A DNA stretch of 64,000 nt from assembly GCF_009931435.1 (NCBI RefSeq), contig NZ_CP043414.1; one strand, given 5' to 3'. Below, one piece after another: positions 2,294 to 30,500 of this stretch (position 1 is its first letter; each line of letters begins with the position of its first letter). The translations under genes and the position numbers were made by a program. The notes under the pieces were generated by a model, which saw nothing but the letters and a program-made list of their open reading frames with translations, was not told the DNA's origin and did no database searches. The stretch is from Escherichia coli. GTDB lineage: Bacteria; Pseudomonadota; Gammaproteobacteria; Enterobacterales; Enterobacteriaceae.

Positions 2294-2311
2294 GTTGAAG
2301 CCCGCGCTTAA

Positions 2312-3208
<897 letters not shown>

Positions 3209-3235
3209 TTTTCCGTTGAAATGCGATGTGCTGGT

Positions 3236-3322
3236 TTGTAGGCCTGATAAGACGCGCCAGCGTCGCATCAGGCATCCGCGCATAGCCGCCGGATGCGGCG
3301 TGAACGCCTTATCCGGCCTACC
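3236..3322. repeat. REP/BIME palindromic elements in the cnoX-fetB spacer
   Basis: Two inverted REP units read directly: gtaggcctgataagacgcgccagcgtcgcatcaggc and gccggatgcggcgtgaacgccttatccggcctac. Confidence 0.8.
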
Positions 3323-3342
3323 AAACCGTGCTAATTCAATAT

Positions 3343-4122
3343 TTATTTCTTCGTCAATTGCGTCACCACCAACTGGTGGCGCGAATTATAAAACTTACGA
3401 TAGGTTAAATAGCAGGCAATAATGGTCGACAAGCTGGCGGTGGAGAGCAGCATAAAGGTCACCATAATCTGATATTTAATCGCCTTCACCGGATCAATCC
3501 CGGCAAATATCAGCCCGGACATCATTCCCGGTAAACTCACTAAGCCAACCGTTTTTGCTGAATCGACCGTCGGAATTAAAGCCGCGCGAATACTGTCGCG
3601 AATCAATATCGCTGAAGCCTGTTTCGGCGTCGCGCCAAGACTCAGTTTCTCCTGAATCTGTTGTTGTTCGCTAATCACCCGTTGCCCTAAATTGTTGTAA
3701 CACAGCCCTACCGCCACCATCGCGTTACCGGCAATCATCCCGGCAATAGGAATCACCTGCATCGGGATAAACTCAATCGACCCTGAGAGAATCAGCACCG
3801 CCAGGGTAATTCCCGCCCCGACCGTAATAGCAATAAACGATGAGATAAAAGCTTTAGCAATATATTTACTGCGTTTTTGCGCATTCCACGCCGCATTAAA
3901 GCAGATAAATAACACCATCAATAATGTCAGGCTGGCATCATCCACGCTGAAAATATACTTCAGCACATAGCCGACAATAATCAGCTGAATTATCGCCCGC
4001 CCGACGCTCCAGAGAATATCTTTCTCCAGCGCCAGTTTTTCTTTATGGCTAATTAAGATTGCTACCACCACCAGCATTAATGCCAGTGCCAATGATTCGT
4101 TAGTAATATTATGCGAGTTCAT
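3343..4122 (-). CDS. fetB: Iron export ABC transporter permease FetB (YbbM)
   Basis: Polytopic hydrophobic ORF (track 3343-4149, trimmed to MNSHNITNESL) immediately downstream of and overlapping fetA. Confidence 0.85.
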   Translation of the reverse strand: MNSHNITNESLALALMLVVVAILISHKEKLALEKDILWSVGRAIIQLIIVGYVLKYIFSVDDASLTLLMVLFICFNAAWNAQKRSKYIAKAFISSFIAITVGAGITLAVLILSGSIEFIPMQVIPIAGMIAGNAMVAVGLCYNNLGQRVISEQQQIQEKLSLGATPKQASAILIRDSIRAALIPTVDSAKTVGLVSLPGMMSGLIFAGIDPVKAIKYQIMVTFMLLSTASLSTIIACYLTYRKFYNSRHQLVVTQLTKK

Positions 4123-4786
4123 AGCGTGCTTCCTGCATTTCTCCGGCATGCGGTTGCAGTGTAATCACTTTATCCGCATGATTAATTTCGTCTTTATCGT
4201 GTGTCACCCACAGCACGGCAATATTTTGCTCGCGCACATAACGGTGGATCATCTCATTAACGTTATGTTTATTACTTTCATCCAGTGCACTGGTGATTTC
4301 ATCCAGCAATAATACCTTTGGCATAAATTGCAGGTTACGAATCAATGAGATGCGTTGTTTTTCACCACCAGATAGCTCGGCGATATTCTTTGTCAAAATG
4401 CTGTCCGGCAAAGCGAAGCGTTCGAGAAAATCGAGAAAAATGGCTGGGTCAGGCTGCTGGTTACGGATCTGCCAGGGAAAGATCAGATTATCGTATACCG
4501 TATCGCCAAACAGCGTCGGCGTCTGGGCGCAGTAAGATACTTGCTGGCGGTAGATTTCTGGCTTGAGTGTACTGACATCCTCACCTTCAAACAGCAACGT
4601 TCCGCTGGTTGGGCTGATTAATGAAGCAACAATTTTCAGCAGCGTACTTTTGCCACAACCGGAAGGGCCGGTAATTAACTTAAATTCGCCAGCACGTAGC
4701 GAAAAATTGATGTTATTAAGAATCTTCGTATCACCCGCCAGATATCCTACGTTTTGTAGCTGAAGCAAAGGACTATTTTCCTGCAT
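4109..4786 (-). CDS. fetA: Iron export ABC transporter ATP-binding protein FetA (YbbL)
   Basis: 225-aa ORF with Walker A GPSGCGKST, signature LSGGEKQR and Walker B LLLDEITSALD. Confidence 0.9.
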   Translation of the reverse strand: MQENSPLLQLQNVGYLAGDTKILNNINFSLRAGEFKLITGPSGCGKSTLLKIVASLISPTSGTLLFEGEDVSTLKPEIYRQQVSYCAQTPTLFGDTVYDNLIFPWQIRNQQPDPAIFLDFLERFALPDSILTKNIAELSGGEKQRISLIRNLQFMPKVLLLDEITSALDESNKHNVNEMIHRYVREQNIAVLWVTHDKDEINHADKVITLQPHAGEMQEARYELA

Positions 4787-4931
4787 CGCTGTTCCCTTTT
4801 TCTGATTTTTACTAAAAACAGTTTATCCTTCGCAGGAATAAGGGGGAACTCTCTTTCAGTAATCAGGTATAATTTGTTTAATCAAGCAGCAATTTTGCTG
4901 ATTATGGACGGTACAACAGGAGGTTTTTCCG

Positions 4932-5849
4932 ATGCTTATCTTTATCCCGATTCTCATTTTTGTCGCGCTGGTCATTGTCGGCGCGGGTGTTAAAATCGTG
5001 CCGCAGGGCTATCAGTGGACAGTAGAACGTTTTGGTCGCTATACCAAAACGTTACAGCCGGGGCTCAGTCTGGTGGTGCCGTTTATGGATCGCATTGGTC
5101 GCAAGATCAATATGATGGAACAAGTGCTCGATATCCCTTCCCAGGAAGTTATCTCGAAAGATAACGCCAACGTTACCATCGACGCCGTGTGCTTTATTCA
5201 GGTGATTGATGCCCCGCGCGCGGCTTATGAAGTCAGCAATCTGGAGCTGGCGATCATCAATCTGACCATGACTAACATCCGTACCGTACTGGGTTCAATG
5301 GAACTTGACGAAATGCTCTCTCAGCGCGATAGCATCAACTCACGTTTGCTACGTATTGTCGATGAGGCCACCAACCCGTGGGGGATTAAAGTCACCCGTA
5401 TTGAAATTCGCGACGTGCGCCCACCGGCAGAGCTTATCTCTTCGATGAACGCGCAGATGAAAGCGGAACGTACCAAACGCGCTTACATCCTTGAAGCGGA
5501 AGGGATCCGTCAGGCGGAAATCCTCAAAGCCGAAGGTGAAAAACAGTCGCAAATCCTGAAAGCGGAAGGTGAACGTCAGTCGGCATTTTTGCAAGCTGAA
5601 GCGCGTGAACGTTCCGCTGAAGCAGAAGCCCGTGCCACTAAAATGGTGTCGGAAGCCATCGCCTCTGGTGATATTCAGGCAGTGAACTACTTCGTAGCAC
5701 AGAAATACACCGAAGCGTTGCAGCAGATCGGTTCTTCCAGTAACAGCAAAGTGGTGATGATGCCATTAGAGGCCAGCAGCCTGATGGGGTCGATAGCCGG
5801 GATTGCCGAGCTGGTGAAAGACAGCGCCAACAAGCGGACTCAGCCATGA
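4932..5849 (+). CDS. qmcA: SPFH/band-7 (stomatin-like) membrane protein QmcA
   Basis: 305-aa ORF with N-terminal transmembrane helix, SPFH core and a C-terminal coiled coil with EAEG/KAEGE repeats. Confidence 0.9.
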
Positions 5850-6304
5850 TGGAGTTAATGGTCGTTCACCCACATATTTTCTGGCTCAGTCTCGGCGGGT
5901 TGCTGCTGGCTGCCGAAATGCTGGGCGGCAATGGTTATCTGTTGTGGAGCGGCGTGGCAGCGGTGATTACCGGCCTGGTGGTCTGGTTGCTGCCGCTGGG
6001 CTGGGAGTGGCAAGGGGTGATGTTTGCCATCCTGACGCTGCTCGCCGCCTGGCTGTGGTGGAAATGGTTGTCGCGACGGGTTCGCGAACAAAAGCACAGC
6101 GACAGTCATCTTAACCAGCGCGGGCAGCAGCTGATTGGCCGACGTTTTGTGCTGGAATCACCGCTGGTCAATGGGCGAGGTCATATGCGCGTCGGCGACA
6201 GTTCATGGCCTGTCAGCGCCAGCGAGGATCTCAGTGCAGGTACGCATGTTGAGGTGATTGCGATAGAAGGGATAACGCTGATTATCCGTGCGGTCATCGC
6301 CTGA
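5846..6304 (+). CDS. ybbJ: NfeD-family membrane protein YbbJ (QmcA partner)
   Basis: 152-aa ORF overlapping the qmcA stop by 4 nt; hydrophobic N-terminus and a C-terminal OB-like soluble domain. Confidence 0.85.
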
Positions 6305-6386
6305 TGCGACGCTGGCGCGTCTTATCATGCCTACAAAATATGCCCGAATCGTAGGCCAGATAAGGTGCTTGCGCCGCATCCGGCAT
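6301..6386. repeat. REP/BIME palindromic elements at the ybbJ 3' end
   Basis: ctgatgcgacgctggcgcgtcttatcatgcctac ... gtaggccagataaggtgcttgcgccgcatccggca, read directly. This marks the left edge of the ybbJ-cueR insert. Confidence 0.75.
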
Positions 6387-6406
6387 ATAGCCGAGTAGAG
6401 GCAAAA

Positions 6407-6769
6407 TTACTCTTCCCGGCCTTTACCCATACTTTTTTGGTCTTCATCCGGATAATGTTTTTTTAGATATTCCAGGACGTTTTTATTGACCTTGTGTTGC
6501 GTATACACCCACCCTTTCCAGTAATCAGGCTGGTCCAGGTAAACTTCTGGCGGAATGGTGAAATCAGAAAGCGTTAACCATTCGGCTAATAGATCGGGGT
6601 TTCGTTTCTGGATTAACTGCAACAGCATAATCAGTGACATAGCTGAGGCAGGAGCCGTACTATCGCCACTTAAATATTTCCACACTGTTGACCGGTTCGA
6701 ACGAAAAAGGATCGGTAGCAATGCCCGGTCCAGATTCATTTCATTAAAAATCTTCTCAAATTCATTCAT
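6407..6769 (-). CDS. Hypothetical 120-aa protein (no motif I recognise), first gene of the ybbJ-cueR accessory block
   Basis: Intact ORF with an AGGAAA Shine-Dalgarno about 8 nt upstream; transcribed divergently from the autotransporter-like gene across an AT-rich spacer. Confidence 0.5.
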   Translation of the reverse strand: MNEFEKIFNEMNLDRALLPILFRSNRSTVWKYLSGDSTAPASAMSLIMLLQLIQKRNPDLLAEWLTLSDFTIPPEVYLDQPDYWKGWVYTQHKVNKNVLEYLKKHYPDEDQKSMGKGREE

Positions 6770-7135
6770 TTAAATTTTCCTGCCTGGCGTAAACCTCTTA
6801 AAAATTGAGATTTATCAAAGAAACGCATTTTAGCACACATCAGGAACTGCTTCACGTTTAGTCCAGAAACAGAATTTATTTCGCTTATCAAAACAAGTCT
6901 TTACTCTTTTTTACATTGAAAGAGCACGAAATGATTTCCTTTTTTATTTATATAAGAAACCATTTTTGTTTCTTATTGATGGTGTTTACGCTTACACCAG
7001 ACAAAAATGCGCTTTACATCACACAAATGGCGGCGTAGATTTCGATTAAATTGCAACGTAGTTTATTTCTTAAAACAATATTATTTGTTTCTTATGGAAA
7101 CATTAATGCGACTTATTTTGAACAAGAGAAAATGA

Positions 7136-8152
7136 ATGAAAACTGTAAACGTAGCTTTACTGGCACTCATAATTTCAGCAACATCCAGCCCTATTGTTTT
7201 AGCTGGTGATACCATTGAAGCGGCGGCAACAGAGCTTTCAGCCATTAACTCTGGCATGTCGCAATCGGAGATTGAGCAGAAGATTACCCGCTTTTTAGAA
7301 CGCACCGACAACAGCCCCGCTGCATATACCTATTTGACTGAACATCACTACATCCCTTCTGAAACACCTGATACCACTCTGACTCCCCCTGTCCAGACAG
7401 ATCCTGACGCAGGACAAAAAACCGTTGCCGCTACAGGTGATGTACAGACAACCGCCCGTTATCAGAGCATGATCAACGCCCGACAGTCTGCGGTAACTGA
7501 TGCCCAGCAAACGCAAATTACAGAGCAACAGGCGCAGATCGTAGCCACACAAAAAACGCTCGCCGCGACTGGAGATACGCAAAATACCGCGCATTATCAG
7601 GAGATGATTAATGCCAGGCTGGCGGCTCAAAATGAGGCTAATCAGCGCACTACCACTGAACAAGGGCAGAAAATGAATGCGCTGACAACCGATGTGGCAG
7701 CACAACAGCAATATGAAAGGACTCAATACGATAAACAAATGCAAAGTCTGGCGCAGAAGTCTGTCCAGGCACATGAGCAAATTGAAAGTCTGAGACAAGA
7801 TTCCGCACAAACGCAGCAACAGTTAACCAACACCCAAAACCGGGTCGCTGATAACAGCCAGCAAATTAACACGCTCAATAACCATTTCGATTCTCTGAAA
7901 AACGAAGTTGAGGACAATCGTAAAGAAGCCAATGCGGGAACTGCATCTGCCATCGCTATCGCCTCACAACCACAGGTGAAAACCGGTGACTTGATGATGG
8001 TGTCAGCGGGAGCGGGAACGTTCAACGGTGAATCTGCGGTGTCTGTAGGAACATCTTTTAATGCCGGAACGCATACGGTACTTAAAGCAGGTATTTCTGC
8101 GGATACACAATCTGATTTCGGTGCGGGTGTCGGCGTGGGATATTCGTTCTAA
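7136..8152 (+). CDS. Short trimeric-autotransporter-like protein with YadA-type C-terminal membrane anchor
   Basis: N-terminal signal peptide (MKTVNVALLALIISATSSPIVLAGD), Q-rich coiled-coil stalk with an internal ~40-aa duplication, and a C-terminal ~75 aa (ASAIAIASQPQ...GDLMMVSAGAGTFNGESAVSVG...FGAGVGVGYSF) matching the YadA anchor pattern with a terminal aromatic. Confidence 0.75.
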   Translation: MKTVNVALLALIISATSSPIVLAGDTIEAAATELSAINSGMSQSEIEQKITRFLERTDNSPAAYTYLTEHHYIPSETPDTTLTPPVQTDPDAGQKTVAATGDVQTTARYQSMINARQSAVTDAQQTQITEQQAQIVATQKTLAATGDTQNTAHYQEMINARLAAQNEANQRTTTEQGQKMNALTTDVAAQQQYERTQYDKQMQSLAQKSVQAHEQIESLRQDSAQTQQQLTNTQNRVADNSQQINTLNNHFDSLKNEVEDNRKEANAGTASAIAIASQPQVKTGDLMMVSAGAGTFNGESAVSVGTSFNAGTHTVLKAGISADTQSDFGAGVGVGYSF

Positions 8153-8205
8153 TTTTAACAGCAATTTCTTATTCGCAATTTTCCGCACATTATTTAAGGT
8201 TAACA

Positions 8206-8628
8206 ATGATGAATAGCTCCATTAAATCGTTTTCCCTGCTGGCGGTTATATTACTGGCTGGCTGTAGTTCACCCACTTCCGGCATCGCAGATTGCCAGGC
8301 GCAGGGCGTCAGTCATGATACCTGTTATCTCGCAGAACAGCAGCGTCAGACGGCTATTTTAAGTGCATCCGAGGCGCAGGCATTTAAAAATGCAGAAGCC
8401 GCACAACATGCCCAGGCGGCAAAGAAAGCCATTTATAAAGGATTTGGCGTCACCTTCAGAATGAGCAGTAAGAACTTTGCTTATCTCAATGATTCATTAT
8501 GTGCCATAGATGAAGATAATGCCGATGCCACGGTTTATCAGTCGGGTCTGTATAACGTCATTGTTTATCATCACACAGGAAAAATCGCCTTAATGAAAGA
8601 AGGCCAGTTTGTGGGTTATTTAAAATGA
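8206..8628 (+). CDS. Putative lipoprotein (140 aa)
   Basis: Signal peptide ending in lipobox L-A-G-C (LLAGCSS); same strand and immediately downstream of the autotransporter-like gene. Confidence 0.6.
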   Translation: MMNSSIKSFSLLAVILLAGCSSPTSGIADCQAQGVSHDTCYLAEQQRQTAILSASEAQAFKNAEAAQHAQAAKKAIYKGFGVTFRMSSKNFAYLNDSLCAIDEDNADATVYQSGLYNVIVYHHTGKIALMKEGQFVGYLK

Positions 8629-8816
8629 AACTCACGCTTATACATATTATGATTATTGGCGCTTTTATCTTTGCATTCTTGCAAGTGGTATTATTAGCCT
8701 CCCTGGTTCACGCTATGAATGTTAACAACGAAATCCAGGAAGGCTTATTTCAGTCGGGGCGCATTATGGTAGAAAGTTTGCAGCATATTCTTTCGGTGCA
8801 AACGGGGATTAACTGA
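8625..8816 (+). CDS. Putative small membrane protein (63 aa), translationally coupled to the lipoprotein gene
   Basis: ATGA start/stop overlap with the upstream ORF; one predicted transmembrane helix (IMIIGAFIFAFLQVVLLASLV). Its stop lies 3 bp from the convergent cueR stop. Confidence 0.4.
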   Translation: MKLTLIHIMIIGAFIFAFLQVVLLASLVHAMNVNNEIQEGLFQSGRIMVESLQHILSVQTGIN

Positions 8817-8819
8817 TTT

Positions 8820-9227
8820 TCACCCTGCCCGATGATGACAGCAGCCAGAGAGATTTTCGATAATCGGGCAATCGGCGCTGTCATCACCGGGGCAGGCATT
8901 CGCCAGCGCCAGTAGCTGGTCGCGCATGGATTGCAGCTCCTCAATGTGCCGTTCGATCTCCGCCACCTTCTCCAGCGTGCGCCGTTTTACATCGGCGCTA
9001 TGCCGCTGCGGGTCGTTAAACAGATTTACCAGTTCGCCGCTCTCTTCCAGGTTAAAGCCCACCTGGCGCGCCTGGCGCAGTAAGGTCAGTTCGTTGAGAT
9101 GCTGCTGCGTGTAGGTTCGATAACCATTTTCGCTGCGCATCGGCGGCGTCACCAGCCCCTTTTCTTCATAGAAGCGAATGGCTTTGCTGGTCAGGCCGGT
9201 AATTTTTGCTACATCGCTAATGTTCAT
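8820..9227 (-). CDS. cueR: Cu(I)-responsive MerR-family transcriptional activator CueR
   Basis: 135-aa [29 protein letters not shown]..., with the MerR HTH and the C-terminal metal-binding [10 protein letters not shown] motif. Confidence 0.95.
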
Positions 9228-15500: not shown

Positions 15501-18500
15501 TGGTGGTGAGCGTGGTCCAGGTCGCGCCGCCATCGAGGCTAATCTGCGCCACTTCGCCGCTGGCAAGCCCCGCCCCCAGCGAACCGGTCAGCGTGAGCGT
15601 GGTATCGCTGGTGATAAAGTCGGTGGCCGAACTCCCCGTATCGGTGCTGATGCTGGCGATGGTGAGCACCTGCGCCGGGTTAACGGTGTCAATCTGCGCC
15701 GACTGGCTGCCGGTTGCGCCAACGTTGCCCGCTAAATCAACCACCCGCACCTGCCAGGTGGTGGTGCCGTTGGTCAGCGTACGCCCGTCCACATATGTCC
15801 AGTTCAGACCGTCTGCGGCAACGGTCACGTTCACCCAGGTTGCGCCGTTGTCGGTACTGATTTGCGCGAACTCATTAGCGCCGAGCGCCGCGCCCAGCAC
15901 GCCGCGCACGGTAAGCGTGGTGTCGCTGGTAATAAAATCGCTGCTGCTGGCTCCGGTGTCATCGCTGATACCGGTAATAGTGATGCTTTTCGCCGCTTCC
16001 GGGCTGATGGTGTCAACCACCACGTTTTGCGTCGCGGTCTGCCCGACATTCCCCGCCAGATCCACCACCCGCACCGTGTAGTTCCATGTGCCGTCGGTGA
16101 GCGTGCGACCATCGGCATAGCTCCAGCTGGTGCCGATAACGGTTAACGTAGTCCAGGTAACGCCACCATCAAGGCTGATTTGCGCCCGTTCATCTGCCGC
16201 CAGCGCCGCGCCGAGCGTCCCGCGCACGGTCAGCGTAGTGTCACGGGTCACAAAATCGCTGCTGCTTAACCCGGTGTCATCGCTGATGCCCGCAATGACG
16301 ATGGTTTTGCTCGCCAGCGGCGCGGTGGTATCCACGGTGACTATCTGGCTGGCGGTCGCGCCGATATTTCCGGCGGTGTCGATCACCCGTACCTGATAGT
16401 TGTAGTTACCGTCGGTCAGCGTGCGCCCGTCAAGATAAGTCCAGGTTAATCCATTTACCGCCAGATTCTGCCAGGTGGTGCCGCCATCGATACTGATTTG
16501 CGCAAACTCACCAGCAGAGAGCGCCGCGCCGAGCGTACCACTCACCGCAAGCGTCGTGTCGCTGGTGACAAAATCATTAGTAATCAGACCTGTATCGGTG
16601 GTGATCGCGCTAATGGCGATGGTTTTCACCGCGGGATCTGGCGCAGTAGTGTCGATCACCACATTCTGGCTATCAGTCGCCCCGACGTTGCCCGCCGCAT
16701 CAATCACCCGCACCTGATAGAGATAGTTACCATCGGTCAGCGTGCGGCTGTCGTTATAGCGCCAGGTCGTGCCAGTAACGGTAAGCGTGCTCCAGGTTAC
16801 ACCGCCGTCGATACTGATTTGCGCCGTCTCGTTACTGGCAAGCGCGGCGGTGAGTGAGCCGTTGACCACCACCGGGCTGACGCTGGTGATAAAGTCGCTG
16901 GCGCTAAGGCCAGTGTCGGCTTGCAGGGAATCAATATTAATGCCCATCGCCGGGGCGCTGAGATCGACGGTAATGGTGTGATTGCTGCTACCGATGTTGC
17001 CAATGGCATTGCTCACCGAAGCGTTAATCACATAGGCATTGCCGTCCGCCAGCGCGGTGACATCGGCGCTGCCGAGGGTGTAGCTCCAGCTACCACCGGT
17101 CTGTACCGTGGTGGTGTAGGTTTTGCCATTTAAGGTCAGGGTCAGCGTCTGCCCGACCGGTGCGGTCGTGGTGCCGCTGATAACCAAAGACGCGCCGTGT
17201 TCCGCCGCGTTCACTACATCATCGCCCGCAAGGGTGTTAATGGTGACGGTGGGGACGTCGCCATTCAACGTCACGCCACGGCTGGCGCTACCGGGGTTTC
17301 CGGCCTGATCGCTGACCGTCGCGCTGATGATGTAGCTGCCGTCGCTTAATCCGGCAAACTGCTGCGCCGGAATAAATACCGACCAGCTTCCGCCACTGCC
17401 GACCGTTGCAGTCCAGCTCTGTCCGTTAAAGGTGACGGTGACAGTCTGACCTACTTCGGCGGTGGTGGTGCCGCTGATAGTCTGCCCGGCAAGCTGTTCG
17501 GCGTTGTTGATAATATCGTCACCCGCCACCGTAGCGATGGTGACCGTCGGCGCAACGGTGTCAACAGTCAGGGCGTGCGTGGTTTGACCGGGGTTACCCG
17601 CACGGTCGTTCACACTGGCGGTGATGGTCTGCGCGCCTTGCCCGAGTGCTGCCAGATCCGCCACAGGCACGTTCAGCGCCCAGGTGCCATTGGCGGCAAC
17701 CGTAGCGGTATAGGTTTTGCCGCCAAAGGTGACAGTGACCGTCTGTCCCACTTCCGCGCTGGTCGAGCCGTTAAGGGTTAACGGCTGCTGCTGTTCGGCG
17801 GCGTTGAGTCGATCGTCCGTCGAAACGGTGTTGATGCTGATAACCGGCGCGGTGAGATCTACCGCCACGCTGCGCGAGGCCGTGGCGCTGTTTCCTGCGC
17901 TGTCCTGGGCGGAGGCGCTAACCGTGTAGCTGGTGCCATCCGCCAGTGCCGCGACGTCTGCCGCCGACACATTCACGCTCCAGCTCCCGTTGTTCTGAAT
18001 GGTGGCGCTGTAGCCCTTGCCATTAAGCAACACGGTCACCACCGTGCCTGTCGCGAAATTAGTGCCAGTGCCGCTCAGGGTCAGCGCACTGCCTGCTTCG
18101 GCGGCGTTAATAATATTATCGCCACTGATGGTGCTGACTGAGAGCGACACCACCGCCGTATTGACCTGCACGTTGTGCGTCTGCGTGCTGCTGTTGCCTG
18201 CGCTGTCGGTGATGGTGGCGCTGATGGTCACCGTGCCGTCTGCAAGGCCGGAAACCACGTTGGCTGGCACGCCAACGCTCCAGTTGCCGCTGGCATCGGT
18301 GCTGGTGACATACTGCTGCCCGGCGATGGTCACCACCAGGCGGTCACCCGCCACCGCGCCCGTGGCGGTGCCGCTGATAATCTGCGCCTGAGAGTGTTCG
18401 ACGTTGTTAATCACGTCATCGCCTGCCACGGTGTTGAAGCTGATGACGGGCGCGGTGGTATCGACGGTGACGCCTTTGCTGGCGCTGCCAGGGTTACCCG

Positions 18501-21500: not shown

Positions 21501-24500
21501 TGGCGCTGACCGTATAGTTAGCCTGGCCTAAGGCCGCCAGATCGCTCACCGGCACGGTTAACGTCCAGTTGCCCGCCGCGTCGGTGGTAGCGTTATAGTT
21601 GTGACCGTTGAGCGTGACGGTGACCTGTGCGCCGGTCGTCAACCCCGTACTGCCGCCGCTGATGGTCAACGGCTGGCCTTTTTCATCGGCGTTCAGGACG
21701 TTATCGCTGCTGATGGCGTTAAAGGTAATGGTCGGCAGCCCGGTATTGACTGTCACCTGATGGCTGGCGCTGCCGCTGTTTCCTCCGACATCAGTGACGC
21801 TGGCGTTAATGGTCACCGTGCCGTTTGCCAGTGTCGAAACAACGCTTGCCGGGACGCCGACGCTCCAGTTGCCGCTGGCATCCAGCACCGTGGTGAAGGT
21901 ATTTGAGCCGATAGTCACCGTCACGGTGCTACCGGTTGCCGCTCCCGTGGAAGAGCCACTGATGATCTGCGCCTGGGCGTGTTCCGTCGCATTGATCACA
22001 TCATCGCCTGCCACCGTGTTGATGGTGACGACCGGAACGGAAGTATCCACCGTCAGGTTGTGGTTAACCGAGGTCGGGTTTCCGGCCTTGTCGCTCACCG
22101 CCGCGCTGACGGTGTAGTTGCTGGCGGTCAGGGCGCTTAAGTCGGCTGGCGGTACGCTGATACTCCAGCTGCCGTCCGTTTGTACCGTGCCAGTATAGTT
22201 TGCGCCATTGAGCGTGACGGTCACCGTCTGCCCGGCTTCCGCCGTGCTGCTGCCGGTGATGGTCAGCGCCGCACCCGCTTCGGCGGCGTTAAGAATATCG
22301 TCGCCCGCAATGGTGTTAATGGTCACCGTTGGCGCGGTGGCATCGACGCTGTAAGCGTGGGTAGTGGTGGCACTGTTGCCGTTAACGTTGCTGACGCTGG
22401 CCTGCGCGCTGGCATCACCATCACGCAGGGCTGCCATATCCGCCGCCGGAACCGTGGTGCTCCAGGAACCATTCGCCGCGACACTTGCAATATAGGTTTT
22501 ACCGCCAAAGGTCACGGTGACCGTTTGCCCGGCCTCCACGCCAGAGGTGCTGCCGGAGAGCGTTAATGCCGCGCCTTTTTCAGCTGCGTTAATCACATCA
22601 TCGGCGGTAATGGCGTTGATGCTGACCGCCACCGCCGAGAGATCGACTGTCACCGGATGCGTAACGCTCACCGGGTTTCCGGCTGTAGTGCTGCCGCTCG
22701 CCGTAATCGTCACCGCCCCCGCAGGCCAGGCGCTGACATCCACCGCCGGAACGCCGACGCTCCAGGTGCCATCCGCCAGCACTGCCGCAACATAGGTTTG
22801 CCCGTTAATGGTCAGCGTGACATTGCTACCCACCGCCAGCCCAGAGCTGCTGCCGGTTATCACCAGCGCCTGACCATGCTCGATGATATTGACCACATCA
22901 TCGCCCGCCACGGTATCGACCCGCAGACCGGGGAGATTCGCGTCTATGGTGATTTCGCGCGTGCCGTTACCGGTATTGCCTACGCTGTTCGTTACCGAAG
23001 CCGAAATGGTCAGCTCTCCGTTGCCCAACGCCTGTAACGCCGAAGCCGGAACATCGACACTCCAGCTTAAGTCTGCCTGTACCGTAGCGGTGTAAGTCGC
23101 CCCACCGAGCGTCACGGTCACCGTATCGCCCGCCGCGGCCCTCGTGACCTGCCCGCTGATAGTTTGAGTTGCCCCCGCTTCGGCGGCGTTAATAATATCG
23201 TCCGTTGCCACAACGTTAATGGTGACGCCCGGTAGCGCGGTATTAACCTGCACGTTATGGCTGGCGGAACCGCTATTGCCATCAACATCGGTTGCGGCGG
23301 CAGTCACCGTATAAGTCGCTTCACCGAGCGTACCAACCGCAGACGCCGGAACAGTCACGCTCCAGTTCCCGGAAGCATCGGCAGTGGTGGTGTAATTTTG
23401 CCCGTTGAGCGTAACAGTTACCTGCGTGCCCGCAGGCTGGTTGCTGGTGCCGGAAATCGACAGATCCGCGCCTTTCTCCGTGGCGTTGATGATGTCATCG
23501 ACGGCGATGGTGTTAATGGCGAGTATCGGTGCACCGAGCGCCACGCTGACAGTGTGCGAGGCCGTGCCGCTGTTGCCTGCGGAGTCGGTAACCGTGGCGG
23601 TAATGGTCACATCGCCCTGGGCCAGCGCGGAAATCACGCTGGCAGGCACACCGATGCTCCAGTTGCCGTTGGCGTCCAGCACGGTGGTGTAGGTGGTCGT
23701 GCCAATCGTCACGGAAACCGTGTTACCCGTCGTCGCGCCCGTTGCCGAGCCGCTGATAATCTGCGCCTGAGCATGTTCCGTGGCGTTAATGATGTCATCG
23801 CCCGCTACCGTGTTAATGGTGACGACCGGAGCGGCAAGATCCACCGTCAGGTTATGCGTTGCCGAGGTTGGGTTGCCCGCTTTGTCGCTGACCGCCGCGC
23901 TCACCGTATAGGGGCTGGCGGTAAGGTCGGCTAAATCGCCAGTTGGTACGCTGACGCTCCAGCTCCCGTCTGCCTGCACGTTGCCGCTGTAATTGACGCC
24001 GTTTAGCGTCACGGTCACTGTCTGCCCGGCTTCTGCGGTGCTGGTGCCGCTGATGGTCAGCGCCGATCCCGCTTCGGCGGCATTAAGAATATCGTCGCTG
24101 GCGATGGTGTTGATAGTAACGGAGGGCGCGGTGGCATCGACGCTATAAACATGCGTTGCCTGGGCGTTGTTACCCGCGACGTTGCTGACGCTGGCCTGGA
24201 TGTTTGCTGCGCCATCCGGCAAGGTTGCGAGATCGGCGGCTGGGATCGTCAGCCCCCAGGTATTATCCGCGGCAACCGTGGTGGTGTAGCTTTTGCCACC
24301 GAAAATAACGGTAATAGTCTGCCCCGCTTCCACATCTGAGGTGGTGCCGGAAAGCTGCAAATCAGTGCCTTTCTCGGCGGCGTTTATCACATCGTCAGTG
24401 GAAAGGGTGTTGATGGTAATCGCCACGGCCGCAAGATCGACGGTCACCGGATGAGTAATGCTGGTTGTGGTTCCGGCAGTGTTAGTGCCAGAGACGGCAA

Positions 24501-27500
24501 TATTGACCGTCCCCGCAGGCCAGTTTGTGACATCTGCCGCCGGAACACCGACGCTCCAGGTGCCATCGGCGAGTACCGTTGCGCCATAGGTGACGCCGTT
24601 GATAACTACCGTCAACGCCGCCCCCGCCGCCAGTCTGCTACTGCTACCGGTGACCACCAGTGCCTGAGTGTGCTCAATGCTGTTAATCACATCATCGCCT
24701 GCCACGGTATCGACCCGCAGACCTGGCAAGTTGGCGTCTATCACGATATCGTGCGTCGCGGTGCCGGTATTATTTGCGGAATTGGTCACCGAGGCGCTGA
24801 TGGTCAGTTCACCGTTACCCAGCGCCTGCAAATCTGCCGCAGGCACGCTGACGCTCCAGCTTAAATCTGGCTGCACGGTGGCAATGTATTGATTACCGCC
24901 GAGCGTGACAGTGACCGAATCTCCTGCTGCTGCCGTCCCCGTAACCTGTCCGCTGAGGGTCTGGTTAACGGCGATTTCAGCGGCGTTGATAATGTCATCA
25001 CCCGCCACAGTATTAATGATTACCCCTGGCAGGAGCGATTCGACATTCACCGTATGGGTAGTACTACCGCTGTTACCCGCGCTGTCGGTGGCGCTGGCGC
25101 TAATCGAATAAACCGCCTCGCCCAGTGCGCCGACCGCCGAAGCCGGCACGGTAACGCTCCAGTTGCCGGAGCCGTCGGTGGTGGCGCTGTACGCCAGGCC
25201 GTTCAACATCACGGTGACCGTAGTGCCTGCCGCCAGGCCGCTGGAGACGCCGCTGATGATCAGATCCTGGGTCTTCTCCGCATTATTAATAATGTCATCA
25301 CCGGAGACAGTGTTAATGGTCAGCGTCGGGCCACTGAGATCAACGGTCACGTCGTGAGTCGTGCTGTCGCTGTTGCCCGCGCGATCGCTCAGGCTGGCGG
25401 TGATGGTCTGGCTACCGGTTGCCAGTGCCGTGACATCCGCCGCCGGAATACCCACACTCCAGTTACCGGAGGCGTCCAGCGTTGTGGTGTAGTTTTTACC
25501 GTTCAGATTAACCGTGACCACATCGCCCGCCGCCGCGCCCGTACTGGTGCCGCTCACCACCAGCGCCTGACCATGTTCGATGGCGTTGATAATGTCATCG
25601 CCCGCGACGGTATTAATGGTGAGATCCGGCGCGGTAACGTCCACCGCCAGTGCATGATCCGCGCTTGCCGGGTTGCCCGCTTTGTCGCTCACCGTGGCGG
25701 TCACGGTATAACTGCTGGCGGTTAATCCGCTTAAATCTGTCGCCGGAACGTTCACACTCCAGGTGCCATCGGCCTGGACGGTAGTCTGGTACGTGTTGTT
25801 ATTGAGCGTGACAGTCAGCGTCTGCCCGGCCTGCGCCGTGGTGGTGCCGCTGATGGTTATCCCCGCGCCCGCTTCACTCACGTTGAGAATATCGTCGCTG
25901 GCGATGGTGTTGATGGTCACAAGCGGCGCGGTGGCATCGACGCTGTACGCGCGATCGGCCTGGGCGCTGTTGCCGTTAATGTTGCTGACACTCGCCTGCA
26001 CGTTGCCCGCGCCGTCCGGCAACGCAGCGAGATCGGCAGGCGGCACATTCACCGTCCAGCTACCGTTGGCTTCCACAGTGGTGGTGTAATTTTTACCGCC
26101 AAAGGTGACGGTCACCGTCTGCCCGGCTTCTACACCGCTGGTACTGCCGCTCACCACCAGCGTTTCGCCTTTTTCGACGGCATTGATCACATCATCGCCG
26201 GAGAGAGTGTTAATGGTTATGGCGACCGCCGCCAGATCGACGGTAACCGGATGGGTAATGGTGGAGGTTGTTCCGGCGCTGTTGGTGCCGCTTACCGTGA
26301 TATCCACCGTACCCGCAGGCCAGTTGCTGACGTCTGCCGCCGGAACGCCGAGGTTCCATGTACCGTCAGCTAACACCGTGGCAGCGTAAGTGACGTTGTT
26401 AATCACGACCGTTAATGCCGTTCCTGCCGTCAGCCCGGTGCTGCTACCTGTTATCACCAGCGCCTGATTGTGCTCAAGGCTGTTAATAACATCATCGCCC
26501 GCCACGGTATCGACCCGCAAACCAGGCAGATTGGCATCGATCGTAATATCGCGCGAGCCGCTGCCGGTATTACCAACGTCATTGGTGACCGAGACGTTAA
26601 CTGTCAGGTCGCCGTTACCCAGCGCCTGAATATCCGCCGCTGGAACGCTGACACTCCAGCTTAAATTAGCCTGCACCGTAGCGGTGTAGGTGTTGCCGCC
26701 CAGCGTGACGGTGACCGTATCGCCCGCCGCCGCGCCCGTCACCTGCCCGCTGATGGTTTGCGCACTGCCCGCTTCGGCGGCATTAATAATGTCATCGGTT
26801 GCCACTGCGTTAATGGTAACGCCAGGTAAGGCGCTGTTGACCAGCACATTATGGCTGGCGGAATTACTGTTGCCTGCCGTGTCGGTAACGCTCGCCGTTA
26901 CCGTGTAGTTGGCTTCACCCAACGCGCTAGCTGCCGAGGCTGGAACCGTAGCGCTCCAGTTGCCACTGCTATCGGTGGTAGCGGTGTAATTTTGCCCGTT
27001 CAGCGTCACCGTTATTGTGGTGCCTGCGGGCTGATTACTGGTGCCGGTGATTTGCAGATCCGCGCCTTTTTCTGTGGCGTTAATCACGTCATCGCTGGCG
27101 ATAGTGTTGATGCCAATGGTTGGCGCGGTGAGATTTACGGTGACCGTGCGGCTGGCATCATCGCTGTTGCCTGCCGTATCGGTAATTGCCGCAGTGATGG
27201 TTTGCGGGCCGCTGCCCAGCGCAGTGACGTCTGCTGCCGGAACGCCGACGCTCCAGTTGCCGGAGGCGTCCAGCGTGGTAGTGTAGGTTTTACTGTTTAA
27301 CGTGATGGTGATGACATCGCCCGCTTCCCCGCCAGTACTGGAACCGGAGATCACCAGCGCCTGCCCGTGTTCGGCGGCATTAATGATGTCATCGCCGGAG
27401 ACGGTGTTAATGGTTAAAACTGGCACGGTGAGATCCACCGCCAGGCCGTGAGTGGCGGTCGCCGGGTTACCCGCTTTGTCGCTTACCGAGGCGCTGACCG

Positions 27501-30500
27501 TGTACGGGCTGGCGGTCAGATTGCTGAGATCTGTTGTCGGCACGCTGACGCTCCAGCTACCGCCCGCCTGAACGGTGCCGATGTAAGCCACACCATTAAG
27601 CGTGACGGTTACCGTTTGCCCCGCTTCGGCGGTGCTGGTGCCGCTGATGGTTAACGGATTGCCCGCCTCAGCGGCGTTAAGAATATCGTCGGTGGCGATG
27701 GTGTTAATGGCAAGCGTCGGTGCCGTGGCATCGACGCTATAGGCGTGGGTTGCCGAAGCCGTGTTGCCGTTAATATTGCTGACACTGGCCCGTACCGTGG
27801 CGTCGCCGTCACGTAACGCGCTGAGATCGGCGGCGGGTACGGTGGTTGTCCAGCTGCCATCGCCCGCTACGGTAGCGGTATAGGTTTTGCCGCCAAAGGT
27901 GACGGTGACGGTTTGCCCCGCTTCCACGCCGGAAGTGCTGCCGGAAAGGGTTAAATCTGCCCCTTTTTCGGCGGCGTTAATCACATCGTCGCCGGAAACG
28001 GTGTTAATGGAGATCGCCACCGCCGCCAGATCGACGGTGACCGGATGGGTGATGGTGGAGGTTGTTCCGGCAGTGTTAGTGCCGCTTACCGTGATATCCA
28101 CCGTCCCCGCAGGCCAGTTGCCCACGTCTGCCGCCGGAACGCCAACGCTCCATGTGCCATCGGCTAATACTGTCGCGCCATAGGTGACGTTATTGATCAC
28201 CACCGTCAGCGCCGCGCCCGCCGCCAGCCCGCTGCTGCTACCGGTTATCACCAGTGCCTGACCGTGCTCGATGCTGTTGACCACATCATCGCCCGCCACG
28301 GTATCGACGCGCAGACCCGGCAGGTTGGCGTCTATCACAATATCGCGCGAACCGCTGCCAGTATTACCCACGCCGTTGGTTACCGAGGCGTTAACTGTCA
28401 GGTCGCCATTACCGATGGCCTGAATATCCGCCGCCGGAACGTCCACGCTCCAGCTAAAATTGCCCTGCACGGTAGCGGTGTAGGTTTTCCCGCCAAGCGT
28501 TACGGTAACCGTATCGCCCGCCGCCGCGCCCGTCACCTGGCCGCTGATGGTCTGCGCCACGCCCGATTCCGCCGCGTTAATAATATCGTCGGTCGCCACC
28601 GGATTAATGGTGACACCCGGCAGCGCGGTATTCACCTGCACGTTATGGCTGGCGGAATTGCTATTGCCCGCGCTGTCGGTGACGTTCGCCGTCACCGTGT
28701 AGCTGGCTTCGCCCAGCGCACCGACGGCAGAGGCTGGCACCGTGGTGCTCCAGTTGCCTGCGGCGTCCGTCGTGGCGGAGTAATTTTGCCCGTTAAGCGT
28801 CACCGTTATTGTGGTGCCTGTTGGCTGATTACTGGTGCCGGAAATTTGCAGATCCGCGCCTTTTTCGGTGGCGTTAATTATGTCATCGGTAGCGATGGTA
28901 TTAATGCCAATAGTCGGCACGGTAAGGTTGACGGTGACCGTATGCGTCTCGTTGTCGCTGTTACCTGCCACATCGGTAACGGTGGCTGTCACGGTTTGCG
29001 GGCCGCTGCCCAGCGCAGAGACATCCGCAGCCGGAACGCCGACGCTCCAGTTTCCGGAGGCATCCAGCGTCGTGGTGTAGGTTTTACTATTTAGCGTGAC
29101 GCTGACAACATCGCCCGCTTCTCCGCCGGTGCTGGAACCGGAAATCACCAGCGCCTGCCCGTGTTCGGCGGCGTTAATAATATCATCGCCCGCAATGGTG
29201 TTAATGGTCAGTACCGGAACGGTGAGATCCACCGCCAGATTATGCGTGGTGCTCGCCGGGTTGCCCGCTTTGTCATTGACCGTCGCCGTCAGGGTATGGC
29301 TGCCATCGGTCAGAGCGGCAAGATCTGCCGCCGGAATATTAATACTCCAGCTGCCGTCGGCCTGTACCGTTGCCTGATAGGTCTGCACAGTTGGGCTGTT
29401 AAGCGTTACCGTAACAATCTGCCCCGCTTCAGCGGTGGTGCTGCCGCTCACCGTCACGCCCGTATCGGCTTCGCTGGCGTTAACGATATTGTCGCTGGCA
29501 ACGGTATTGATAATGATGGTTGGCGCGCTGCTGTCGACGCTGTAGTTATGCACCGCCGAGGCGCTATTGCCATTGATATTGCTGACGCTGGCCTGCGCGG
29601 AGGCGCTGCCCTCAGGTAATGCTGCCAGATCGGCGGCAGGAACGGTGGCAGTCCAGCTACCATCGCTCGCCACGCTGGCGGTGTAATTTTTCCCGCCAAA
29701 GTTGACGGTGACGGTTTGTCCTGGCTCTACATTAGTGGTGGTGCCGGAAAGGGTTAAATCAGCGCCTTTTTCTGCGGCGTTAATCACGTCGTCCGTGGCG
29801 ATGGTGTTGATTGTGATCGCCGCCGGCGTGAGATCCACCGTTACCGGATGCGTAATGCTTATCGGATTTCCGGCGCTACTTTCCCCGGATACAGCAATAG
29901 ACACCGTCCCCGCAGGCCAGGCGCTAACCTGCGCCGCCGTGACGCCCACGCTCCAGCTACCATCGGCCTGCACCGCAGTGGTGTATTCCACATTATTAAT
30001 CGTAACTGTAAGCGGGGTGCCTTCAGCCAGCCCCGAGCTGCTGCCGGTGACCACCAGCGCCTGCCCGTGTTCGATGATATTGACCACATCATCGCCCGCT
30101 ACCGTATCGACCCGCAGACCGGGCAGATTGGCGTCGATGGTGATATCCCGCGTGCCGCTGCCGGTGTTGCCGTTTTGATTGGTGACCGAGGCGCTCACCG
30201 TTAAATCACCATTACCCAGCGCCTGAATATCCGCCGCCGGAACGCTCACGCTCCAGCTTAAATTGGCCTGCACGGTGGCGGTGTAAGTATTACCGCCCAG
30301 CGTAACGGTTACCGTGTCGCCAACGGCAGCTCCGGTAACCTGCCCGCTGATGGTTTGCACTACGCCCGCTTCGGCGGCGTTAATAACATCGTCGGCTGCC
30401 ACCGGGTTAATGGTCACGCCGGGCAGCGCGCTGTCGACCAGCACGTTATGGCTGGCGGTGGCGCTGTTGCCGATATCGCTGGTCACCGCCGCCGTTACCG

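What the first reader, a model, noticed from the sequence alone, without database searches (positions are those of the whole stretch)
17700..30300. About seven near-identical 1.8 kb tandem coding repeats: recombination and assembly hotspot
The ~600-aa super-repeat (six Ig-like domains each) recurs about seven times with very high identity. This is visible from the recurring peptide IDANLPGLRVDTVAGDD and from antisense artefact ORFs with the same N-terminus at a ~1.8 kb spacing. Arrays like this expand and contract by RecA-dependent unequal crossing-over, giving adhesin length variation between isolates, and they are often collapsed or mis-phased in short-read assemblies. The long open antisense frames are a by-product of the biased Thr/Val/Ala/Gly codon composition.
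Basis: seen in the sequence. Interest (0 to 1): 0.4.

Follow-up and report, generated by a model that had tools for sequence, protein, structure and literature searches.

The report
Old, diverged repeats in siiEA adhesin
The 1.8-kb repeats are real, but they are ancient copies only about 71% identical inside the known E. coli giant adhesin gene siiEA (O-island 28), so this is an ordinary, mostly stable adhesin stalk and not a recombination or assembly hotspot.

Summary
The periodicity is real. The peptide IDANLPGLRVDTVAGDD occurs 6 times exactly and once with one change, 598-601 aa apart. Forty-two of 52 Ig-like domains form seven six-domain units of about 1,797 bp (window 18166-30735, minus strand). 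"Near-identical" is wrong. Units are about 71% identical in DNA and 63-80% in protein, with dS about 1.1. The longest exact DNA repeat in the gene is 35 bp, and every 36-mer in the array is unique. The shared peptide is conserved by selection: 12 of its 15 variable nucleotide positions are third-codon positions.

The gene is siiEA, a type I-secreted BapA-like adhesin of E. coli O-island 28, found in 959 of 5,426 complete E. coli genomes and studied functionally in 2025. Each unit has a one-to-one orthologue in other E. coli alleles, in Escherichia sp. E1V33 and in Pseudocitrobacter faecalis, so the duplications are ancient and are not being homogenised.

Length variants do exist. Eight of the ten distinct alleles fetched (chosen mainly for partial matches) carry deletions of 1-9 domains, and the best-resolved junctions lie in identical patches of 14-29 bp. 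Only one deletion removes a six-domain block at the unit period (1,800 bp, 86 genomes). About half of a spread sample keeps the full collinear length. Ordinary and already known.

The parts
12562..33333 (-). siiEA: intact 6,923-aa BapA-related type I-secreted giant adhesin gene
   Evidence: ORF. NCBIfam NF047714 adhesin_SiiEA scores 502.7 bits (cutoff 425). RefSeq orthologues are annotated siiEA.
32938..33321 (-). BapA prefix-like N-terminal domain (aa 5-132)
   Evidence: Pfam PF22783 BapA_N, 67.2 bits. NF033677 biofilm_BapA_N.
16969..32529 (-). Extender: 52 consecutive ~100-aa Ca2+-stabilised Ig-like domains (d01-d52, aa 269-5455)
   Evidence: In-house domain HMM, 52 hits of 98-132 bits. Pfam Big_13. 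NCBIfam Ca_tandemer, 49+8 stretches. PDB 4P99 MpAFP_RII tetra-tandemer, E=9e-68.
28933..30735 (-). Super-repeat R1 (d07-d12, aa 867-1467)
   Evidence: Period-6 domain identity. Coordinates.
27139..28932 (-). Super-repeat R2 (d13-d18, aa 1468-2065)
25345..27138 (-). Super-repeat R3 (d19-d24, aa 2066-2663)
23545..25344 (-). Super-repeat R4 (d25-d30, aa 2664-3263)
21751..23544 (-). Super-repeat R5 (d31-d36, aa 3264-3861)
19954..21750 (-). Super-repeat R6 (d37-d42, aa 3862-4460)
18166..19953 (-). Super-repeat R7 (d43-d48, aa 4461-5056)
30088..30138 (-). Copy 1 of the conserved inter-domain peptide IDANLPGLRVDTVAGDD. The other copies start (highest coordinate) at window 28335, 26541, 24741, 22947, 21150 and 19356; the last has N->S.
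   Evidence: Conserved at protein level, with synonymous differences between copies.
12574..12882 (-). Type I secretion C-terminal target domain (about aa 6818-6920)
   Evidence: TIGR03661 T1SS_VCA0849, 32.5 bits (cutoff 17.6).
10396..12558 (-). Type I secretion ABC permease/ATPase (LssB type)
   Evidence: TIGR03375, 836 bits (cutoff 693). Pfam ABC_membrane and ABC_tran.
9224..10399 (-). HlyD-family type I secretion periplasmic adaptor
   Evidence: TIGR01843, 328 bits (cutoff 208.65).
33442..34797 (-). TolC-family outer-membrane component of the system. In this window it is interrupted by an in-frame stop at codon 335 (window 33793-33795).
   Evidence: TIGR01844, 298 bits. Translation shows the stop. 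Gap-free alignment to the intact 451-aa orthologue.

Best explanation
The region is the central stalk ('extender') of siiEA, the giant BapA-like adhesin of E. coli O-island 28. The protein is exported by the adjacent type I secretion genes.

The stalk is a chain of 52 Ca2+-stabilised Ig-like domains. Forty-two of them are arranged as seven six-domain super-repeats of about 599 aa (1,797 bp). These units came from ancient block duplications. They have since diverged to about 71% identity under purifying selection, and they are inherited as positional orthologues across E. coli alleles and related genera.

Because no exact match between units exceeds 35 bp, the array is not an efficient substrate for homologous unequal crossing-over and assembles unambiguously. 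Length changes do occur, but rarely. They are deletions in domain register whose best-resolved junctions lie in identical patches of 14-29 bp, mostly in the conserved domain-start motif (T-I-N-T-I-A-x-D-D-x-I-N). They then spread clonally.

Shown here: the anatomy, the divergence, the orthology, the deletion alleles and their junctions. Inferred: the stalk function, by homology to MpIBP region II and from the OI-28 paper. Also inferred: the molecular route of deletion, which could be RecA-dependent recombination at minimal homology or RecA-independent slippage.
For: Identity of the gene:
- NF047714 adhesin_SiiEA is above its cutoff, as are the C-terminal signal TIGR03661 and the models for the ABC, adaptor and TolC-family components. 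BapA_N and Big_13 match in Pfam.
- The locus sits between ybaT and cueR in 959 of 5,426 complete E. coli genomes and is annotated siiEA.
- PMC12758282 shows that OI-28 is needed for O157:H7 adherence and colonisation.
- The closest solved structure is the MpAFP_RII Ca2+-stabilised tetra-tandemer 4P99, E=9e-68.

Array anatomy: seven motif copies, 52 domains, period-6 identity of 65-68% against about 44%.

Age of the units:
- Mean nt identity is 71.0%, mean aa identity 70.7%, dS 1.10 and dN/dS about 0.2.
- The longest exact repeat is 35 bp.
- The motif copies differ at synonymous sites.

Positional orthology:
- Domain painting of 10 E. coli alleles keeps the order d01-d52.
- Escherichia sp. E1V33 is 91.7% nt identical and collinear. 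Pseudocitrobacter faecalis is 85.6% nt identical, collinear and free of indels over nt 4213-12557.
- Orthologous units are 89-95% aa identical, paralogous units 63-80%.
- The same ~1,797-bp spacing of the motif occurs in Enterobacter, Lelliottia, Huaxiibacter, Pseudocitrobacter and Escherichia sp. E1V33.

Deletions:
- Deletions of d25, d07, d52, d09-11, d15-16 plus d37, d23-28, d36-42, and d16 plus d20-28 were found.
- The allele in L006 is 100% identical to the one in L012 on both sides of an exact 1,800-bp deletion, and the crossover lies in a 29-bp identical patch. This junction is present at >=99% identity in 86 genomes. The undeleted parental segment is at >=99% in 49 genomes.
- The 7-domain deletion has a 27-bp crossover zone, and a 1-domain deletion has a 14-bp zone.
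Against: - L006 and L012 differ by two domain-register indels but only 4 substitutions in the last 4.3 kb. Measured against point mutation, indels in this gene are therefore not very rare, so 'stable' is relative.
- Only about 60 of the 959 genomes were sampled for overall length, and 11 loci were examined domain by domain. The true spectrum of variants, including expansions, is under-sampled.
- Some relatives have much more similar units: about 90-91% nt in Lelliottia sp. V86_10, and 95-bp or longer exact repeats in Huaxiibacter. The family can therefore undergo recent duplication or conversion.
- The stalk function and Ca2+ dependence were not tested for this protein.
Confidence: 0.88

Rival explanations
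1. Seven near-identical 1.8-kb units form a RecA-dependent unequal-crossover hotspot that expands and contracts between isolates and collapses in short-read assemblies.
For: The 1.8-kb periodicity is real. One allele family lost 1,800 bp (six domains) at the unit period, and 86 genomes carry it. Length variants are present in complete genomes. Relatives with more similar units do break short-read assemblies. Misassembly is documented for RTX adhesins with identical repeats (bioRxiv 10.1101/2025.09.30.679566).
Against: Units are about 71% identical and dS is about 1.1. The longest exact repeat is 35 bp, and all 36-mers are unique. There is no homogenisation of paralogues. Only 1 of at least 9 deletion events is at the unit period. 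No expansion by recent duplication was seen in E. coli; the 3 extra domains in L008 are at most 79% identical to anything else. About half of the sampled genomes are collinear and full-length despite 7-8% divergence. From general knowledge: in mismatch-repair-proficient E. coli, recombination between sequences about 30% diverged is strongly suppressed.
Confidence: 0.07
2. The deletions arise by RecA-independent replication slippage or template switching between short identical patches, not by homologous recombination.
For: Crossover zones are only 0-29 bp long. Five of the eight measured junctions join domains of different classes, where the parental copies are about 36-57% identical around the junction. 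One variant (L005) has a net 799-bp out-of-frame loss and is a pseudogene.
Against: The partners are 0.3-2.7 kb apart. From general knowledge, RecA-independent slippage falls off with distance. Patches of 27-29 bp are at the reported minimal length for RecBCD-dependent recombination in E. coli, so sequence alone cannot separate the two routes.
Confidence: 0.45
3. The length variants are assembly artefacts in the public genomes and not real alleles.
For: Giant repetitive adhesins are often misassembled. Several variant genes are annotated as frameshifted pseudogenes. L012 is the only fetched example of its allele.
Against: The 1,800-bp deletion junction is present at >=99% identity in 86 independent complete genomes. 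All 12 sampled genomes of the O157:H7-type group (rows H44-H55) show the same matched span to within 11 bp. The repeats are too diverged to confuse long-read or even short-read assemblers. Three variant alleles (L006/L007, L008, L012) keep intact reading frames.
Confidence: 0.05

Closest known systems
SiiEA / OI-28 RTX adhesin of E. coli (Z0609+Z0615, 'RtxA28/RtxB28', in O157:H7 EDL933; ECUMN_0527 in UMN026)
   Same: Same gene and same locus (tolC-like, siiEA, ABC, HlyD, between ybaT and cueR). Alleles are 92-97% nt identical and collinear, and the NCBIfam SiiEA model is met. Function in adherence and colonisation is reported in PMC12758282.
   Different: Here the gene is one intact 6,923-aa ORF with all 52 domains. 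In O157:H7 it lacks d25 and is split by an internal stop. The window's TolC-family gene carries a premature stop.
MpIBP (Marinomonas primoryensis ice-binding adhesin) region II; PDB 4P99
   Same: Same domain type: Ca2+-stabilised BIg 'tandemer' extender. The match is E=9e-68, and the NCBIfam Ca_tandemer model matches 57 stretches. The presumed role is the same, a rigid stalk that projects the distal region.
   Different: MpIBP RII has about 120 identical 104-residue repeats (PMC4083281 abstract), a true near-identical array. Here adjacent domains are about 44% identical and same-class domains about 65-68% identical (best pairs up to 90%), organised in a six-domain period.
Salmonella BapA and SiiE (SPI-4); Pseudomonas LapA
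   Same: Giant type I-secreted non-fimbrial adhesins with an N-terminal prefix or retention region, long BIg arrays, a C-terminal secretion signal and a dedicated ABC, adaptor and outer-membrane set (Pfam BapA_N). The comparison with SiiE and LapA rests on general knowledge and on the introduction of PMC12758282.
   Different: Direct sequence similarity to SiiE or LapA was not tested here. No LapG or LapD genes are annotated next to the locus. The name siiEA comes from annotation by homology, not from shown equivalence.
RTX adhesins with patterned extenders (survey in bioRxiv 10.1101/2025.09.30.679566)
   Same: That survey describes extender patterns from near-identical runs, through repeated pairs and more complex blocks, to arrays in which all domains are <80% identical. 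It also describes isoforms that differ in extender number. The present array fits the 'complex pattern, mostly dissimilar' end.
   Different: A six-domain period conserved with positional orthology across genera does not appear among the patterns named in the passages I read. E. coli siiEA is not among the species surveyed there, as far as I read.

Membership tests
BapA-related adhesin SiiEA (NCBIfam NF047714) | N-terminal 229-residue SiiEA-specific region scoring above the curated cutoff | tested here: met
   502.7 bits against a cutoff of 425, model positions 1-229 matched.
BapA-related adhesin SiiEA (NCBIfam NF047714) | Same chromosomal locus and collinear orthology with RefSeq genes annotated siiEA | tested here: met
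   The 22-kb query matches in one piece at 92-97% identity in many genomes, between the type I secretion ABC gene and the TolC-family gene next to ybaT.
Type I-secreted giant RTX/BapA-type adhesin | C-terminal non-cleaved type I secretion target domain | tested here: met
   TIGR03661, 32.5 bits against a cutoff of 17.6.
Type I-secreted giant RTX/BapA-type adhesin | [quoted passage not shown] | tested here: met
   TIGR03375 836 bits, TIGR01843 328 bits and TIGR01844 298 bits, all above their cutoffs. The outer-membrane gene has a premature stop in this window.
Type I-secreted giant RTX/BapA-type adhesin | RTX nonapeptide (GGxGxD) Ca2+-binding repeats near the C-terminus | tested here: inconclusive
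   PF00353 HemolysinCabind scores 21.1 bits, below the gathering score of 23, with one stretch.
Type I-secreted giant RTX/BapA-type adhesin | Long tandem array of Ca2+-stabilised bacterial Ig-like extender domains | tested here: met
   52 domains. Ca_tandemer matches 57 stretches. PDB 4P99 matches at E=9e-68. Ca2+ binding itself is not testable here.
LapA-type adhesin with LapG/LapD-controlled retention | lapG protease and lapD receptor genes at the locus | tested here: not met
   Annotated neighbours in 10 orthologous loci are cueR, a YadA-family adhesin gene, ybaT and glsA. No LapG- or LapD-like product is annotated. A LapG cleavage site in the N-terminus was not examined.
Near-identical tandem coding repeat array (recombination and assembly hotspot, e.g. 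MpIBP RII-like) | Long tracts of high DNA identity between units | tested here: not met
   Units are about 71% nt identical, the longest exact repeat is 35 bp, and all 36-mers are unique.
Near-identical tandem coding repeat array (recombination and assembly hotspot, e.g. MpIBP RII-like) | Concerted evolution: paralogous units within a genome more alike than orthologous units between genomes | tested here: not met
   Orthologous units are 85-100% nt identical within E. coli and 89-95% aa identical in E1V33 and Pseudocitrobacter, against 63-80% aa for paralogues.
Near-identical tandem coding repeat array (recombination and assembly hotspot, e.g. MpIBP RII-like) | Copy-number polymorphism at the unit period among isolates | tested here: inconclusive
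   One 1,800-bp six-domain deletion is carried by 86 genomes. The other events (at least 8) are of 1, 2, 3, 7 or 9 domains, and no recent gain was seen. Only about 60 genomes were sampled for length.

The most novel reading that the evidence does not exclude
The six-domain, ~599-aa super-repeat may itself be a selected structural period of the stalk and not merely a fossil of block duplication. Its nearly invariant boundary peptide (IDANLPGLRVDTVAGDD) is kept in seven copies and across Enterobacteriaceae and Erwiniaceae. The boundary peptide could form a special linker, hinge or Ca2+ site every sixth domain. The near-saturated synonymous divergence between units could be favoured because it protects a 21-kb repetitive gene from recombinational collapse.
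Probability: 0.12. Interest if true: 0.4.

Novelty: already known. Interest (0 to 1): 0.14.

Why it matters
It matters little beyond correct annotation. The practical points are these:
- A recurring peptide seen by eye does not mean the DNA repeats are near-identical.
- This allele of siiEA should assemble correctly even from short reads.
- Differences in siiEA length between E. coli lineages are real but are lineage markers. Examples are the loss of d25 in O157:H7 and the 1,800-bp loss shared by 86 genomes. They do not reflect a rapidly switching array.
- For work on OI-28 adhesion, it may be useful to know that the full 52-domain intact form exists, that many alleles are shortened or are pseudogenes, and that this strain's dedicated TolC-family gene is truncated.

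Tried and rejected
- Tandem Repeats Finder on 10000-36000 found nothing. Its period limit is 500, and adjacent domains are only about 44% identical, so this is uninformative.
- A greedy BLAST chaining of alleles gave incomplete chains. I replaced it with per-domain painting and unique-seed diagonals.
- The search for homologous proteins with the N-terminal 268 aa returned only fragments of 152-467 aa and no full-length proteins, so it gave no length distribution.
- I suspected those fragments marked contig breaks, which would have been evidence of assembly trouble. The look-up of encoding contigs showed that the two I checked lie inside their contigs, consistent with ORFs split by internal stops or frameshifts, so I dropped that inference.
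- I considered that the conserved 17-aa peptide reflects recent gene conversion. I rejected this because the copies differ at 12 third-codon positions.
- I considered that the three extra domains in L008 are a recent expansion. I rejected this because they are at most 79% identical to any other segment.
- I did not run structure prediction. The domain type is already fixed by the sequence match to 4P99.

Full report
**1. What is at the coordinates**

The window carries one giant ORF on the minus strand, 12562..33333, of 6,923 aa. Downstream of it on the coding strand lie a type I secretion ABC permease/ATPase (10396..12558) and a HlyD-family adaptor (9224..10399). Upstream lies a TolC-family outer-membrane gene (33442..34797).

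The protein has these features:
- a BapA prefix-like N-terminus (Pfam PF22783);
- dozens of Big_13 / 'Ca_tandemer' Ig-like domains;
- FG-GAP repeats;
- a weak RTX match (21.1 bits, below the cutoff of 23);
- a type I secretion C-terminal target domain, TIGR03661.

It passes NCBI's SiiEA model, NF047714, with 502.7 bits against a cutoff of 425.

The flanks (ybaT, glsA, copA, cueR) are E. coli at about 98% identity. The locus is present in 959 of 5,426 complete E. coli genomes, where RefSeq annotates the gene as 'siiEA: BapA-related adhesin SiiEA'. This is O-island 28 of O157:H7. A 2025 paper (PMC12758282) shows that this type I secretion and adhesin system is needed for epithelial adherence and mouse colonisation, and that it is activated by RstA and Ca2+.

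**2. Check of the observation**

The peptide IDANLPGLRVDTVAGDD occurs exactly six times, and a seventh time with N->S, at intervals of 598-601 aa. A self-BLAST of the gene gives long off-diagonal alignments at offsets 1794, 3597, 5391, 7191, 8985 and 10782 nt. These span gene nt 2095-15144, about 7.3 periods.

A domain HMM built from the protein finds 52 consecutive ~100-aa domains between aa 269 and 5455. Mean domain identity is 65-68% at offsets of 6, 12, 18 and 24 domains and about 44% at all other offsets, with a slight bump at offsets of 3, 9 and 15 domains. The 'six Ig-like domains per ~600-aa unit, about seven units' description is therefore correct. The register is clearest for d07-d48, which is window 18166..30735. 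The antisense ORFs that share an N-terminus (MPPKVTVTVCP...) at about 1.8-kb spacing are also there.

**3.

The units are not near-identical.
- DNA identity between units is 70-72% in BLAST and 66.7-77.5% on codon alignments.
- Protein identity is 63-80%. dS is 0.86-1.24, close to saturation, and dN/dS is about 0.2.
- The longest exact direct repeat anywhere in the 20.8-kb gene is 35 bp.
- Inside the array every 36-mer is unique, and only 24 positions carry a non-unique 31-mer.
- The eye-catching peptide is conserved at the protein level only. Fifteen of its 51 nucleotides vary among the seven copies, twelve of them at third-codon positions.

**4. Are the units being homogenised or reshuffled?**

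I fetched 11 orthologous loci from complete E. coli genomes and assigned every ~300-bp domain to its best-matching window domain. In every allele the domains appear in the order d01...d52 and match their positional orthologue at 85-100% (apart from three scores of 76-78%). Paralogues are about 70% identical. There is no sign of concerted evolution.

The same holds outside E. coli. A degenerate DNA pattern for the motif found it in 38 stretches of genome from Enterobacter, Lelliottia, Pseudocitrobacter, Huaxiibacter, Cedecea, Rosenbergiella, Ca. Erwinia dacicola and Escherichia sp. E1V33. Wherever one stretch holds several copies, adjacent copies are about 1,797 bp apart, or a multiple of that.

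Escherichia sp. E1V33 is collinear at 91.7% nt. Pseudocitrobacter faecalis is collinear and free of indels over gene nt 4213-12557 at 85.6% nt. E. coli units 4 and 5 are 90% and 89% aa identical to consecutive Pseudocitrobacter units, but only about 71% identical to each other. Enterobacter species also show one-to-one unit orthology, at 88-95%. The block duplications therefore predate these lineages, and the array has been transmitted largely intact.

**5. Does length vary between isolates?**

It does, but not in the way proposed. In a 60-row sample spread across the ranking of the 959 genomes, 30 rows are single-piece, full-length matches (22,001 bp, within 9 bp) at 92-97% identity.

The other alleles fetched, chosen mainly from partial matches, carry deletions in domain register:

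| Allele | Domains lost |
|---|---|
| O157:H7 type | d25 |
| L011 | d07 |
| L012 | d52 |
| L005 | d09-11 (net 799 bp, out of frame; pseudogene) |
| L009 | d15-16 and d37 |
| L006/L007 | d23-28 |
| L004 | d36-42 |
| L008 | d16 and d20-28 |

L008 also has three extra N-terminal domains. They are at most 79% identical to anything else, so they are an old remnant and not a recent gain.

Only the L006/L007 event removes six domains at the unit period. L006 is 100% identical to L012 for 7,442 bp before an exact 1,800-bp gap and for 6,951 bp after it. The crossover lies in a 29-bp identical patch, ACCATCAACACCATCGCCAGCGACGATAT, which encodes the domain-start motif TINTIASDDI. That junction is present at >=99% identity in 86 genomes. 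The undeleted parental segment is present at >=99% in 49 genomes. This is therefore a real, clonally inherited allele and not an assembly artefact.

The 7-domain deletion has a 27-bp crossover zone, GGCGATGATGTGATCAACGCGACGGAA (GDDVINATE), between domains of different classes whose surroundings are only 46% identical. A 1-domain deletion has a 14-bp zone. The other junctions are less well resolved, at 0-5 bp, because the true parent is not available.

**6. Mechanism**

The deletions are short-homology events at the few conserved codons that begin each domain. They are not crossovers within long homologous 1.8-kb tracts. Sequence alone cannot tell whether they arise by RecA-dependent recombination at about the minimal processing length or by RecA-independent slippage.

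One observation cuts against calling the array simply 'stable'. L006 and L012 differ by two domain-register indels but only four substitutions in the last 4.3 kb. Relative to point mutation, indels in this gene are therefore not negligible. Even so, the identical architecture across alleles that are 7-8% diverged, and across genera, argues against a hotspot in the usual sense.

**7. Assembly**

For this allele, collapse or mis-phasing is not expected, since all 36-mers are unique. The general caution is valid for relatives with more similar units. Lelliottia sp. V86_10 has blocks 90-91% nt identical at offsets of 1,797 and 5,391 bp. The Huaxiibacter chinensis short-read assembly breaks the array into contigs of 371-866 bp that share 95-bp exact overlaps. 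A recent survey documents misassembly for RTX adhesins with identical repeats (bioRxiv 10.1101/2025.09.30.679566).

**8. Antisense ORFs**

The codon-aligned antisense frame has 78 stops in 6,923 codons. That equals the number of TTA (53), CTA (8) and TCA (17) sense codons. The longest open stretch is 326 codons. The gene is 60% G+C (70% at third positions) and rich in Thr, Ala, Val, Gly and Ser.

**9. Comparison with known systems**

The domain is the Ca2+-stabilised BIg 'tandemer' first solved in MpIBP region II (4P99, E=9e-68). Its role there is a rigid extender (PMC4083281 and PMC7493085). MpIBP region II is the true near-identical case, with about 120 identical repeats. siiEA is the opposite case, with old and diverged copies. 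Patterned extender arrays and isoforms that differ in extender number are already described for RTX adhesins. The gene itself is named, annotated and functionally studied.

**10. Verdict**

The periodic architecture is confirmed, and the 'near-identical hotspot' reading is not. The finding is an ordinary feature of a known adhesin. The only mildly new details are the conservation of the six-domain period across genera, with positional orthology, and the short-homology deletion junctions.

Noticed in passing
window 33442-34797 (-), stop at 33793-33795: The TolC-family outer-membrane gene of the secretion system has an in-frame stop at codon 335 of 451. It aligns without gaps (97.9% nt) to the intact orthologue. 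No complete E. coli genome is >=99% identical over 33650-33950, so the nonsense change looks private to this strain. The adhesin may not be exported by its own outer-membrane component.
   Followed up: partly
L008 (E. coli RMDEC465) gene nt ~1595-2956: Three extra N-terminal extender domains (894 bp) are absent from the window allele. They are at most 79% identical to any other segment, and one carries a variant boundary motif (GLPGLRIDTIAGDD). They look like the remnant of an eighth super-repeat that is lost in the window and in the four other alleles compared.
   Followed up: partly
L018-L020 (Pseudocitrobacter faecalis DSM 27453) vs window gene nt 4213-12557: The central array is collinear and 85.6% nt identical to E. 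coli siiEA. The best Pseudocitrobacter hit to the N-terminal 268 aa is only 55% identical (P0016). This suggests a mosaic gene, horizontal exchange of the array, or a second paralogue.
   Followed up: no
L027 (Lelliottia sp. V86_10); L041-L044 (Huaxiibacter chinensis): Relatives have much more similar units. Lelliottia has blocks 90-91% nt identical at offsets 1,797 and 5,391 bp. The Huaxiibacter short-read assembly is shattered into contigs of 371-866 bp with 95-bp exact overlaps. The family can undergo recent duplication or conversion.
   Followed up: partly
window 12562-33333 vs L002 (strain R32_14_1F): The identity pattern is mosaic. Most of domains d16-d30 are 100% identical (d24 98%), while the others are 86-100%. 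This points to allelic recombination within the gene between E. coli lineages. Most alleles are only 92-93% identical to the window across the gene, whereas the best-matching genomes are about 98% identical in the flanks.
   Followed up: no
L001, L004, L005, L009, L011 (E. coli complete genomes): Five of the 11 fetched siiEA genes, including the O157:H7 type, are annotated as pseudogenes (frameshift or internal stop). The paper on OI-28 treats the two O157:H7 fragments as two separate RTX proteins.
   Followed up: partly
window 12562-33333 vs flanks: The adhesin gene is 60% G+C (array 60.6%, type I secretion ABC and adaptor genes 57%), against 50-52% in the flanking core genes. This fits its Thr/Ala/Val/Gly bias, a foreign origin of the island, or both.
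   Followed up: no
window 7136-8152 (+): A 338-aa ORF next to the island corresponds to genes annotated as a YadA-family autotransporter adhesin in the orthologous loci. Its length varies between strains (1,017-1,269 bp). It is a second adhesin gene next to the island, on the far side of cueR.
   Followed up: no
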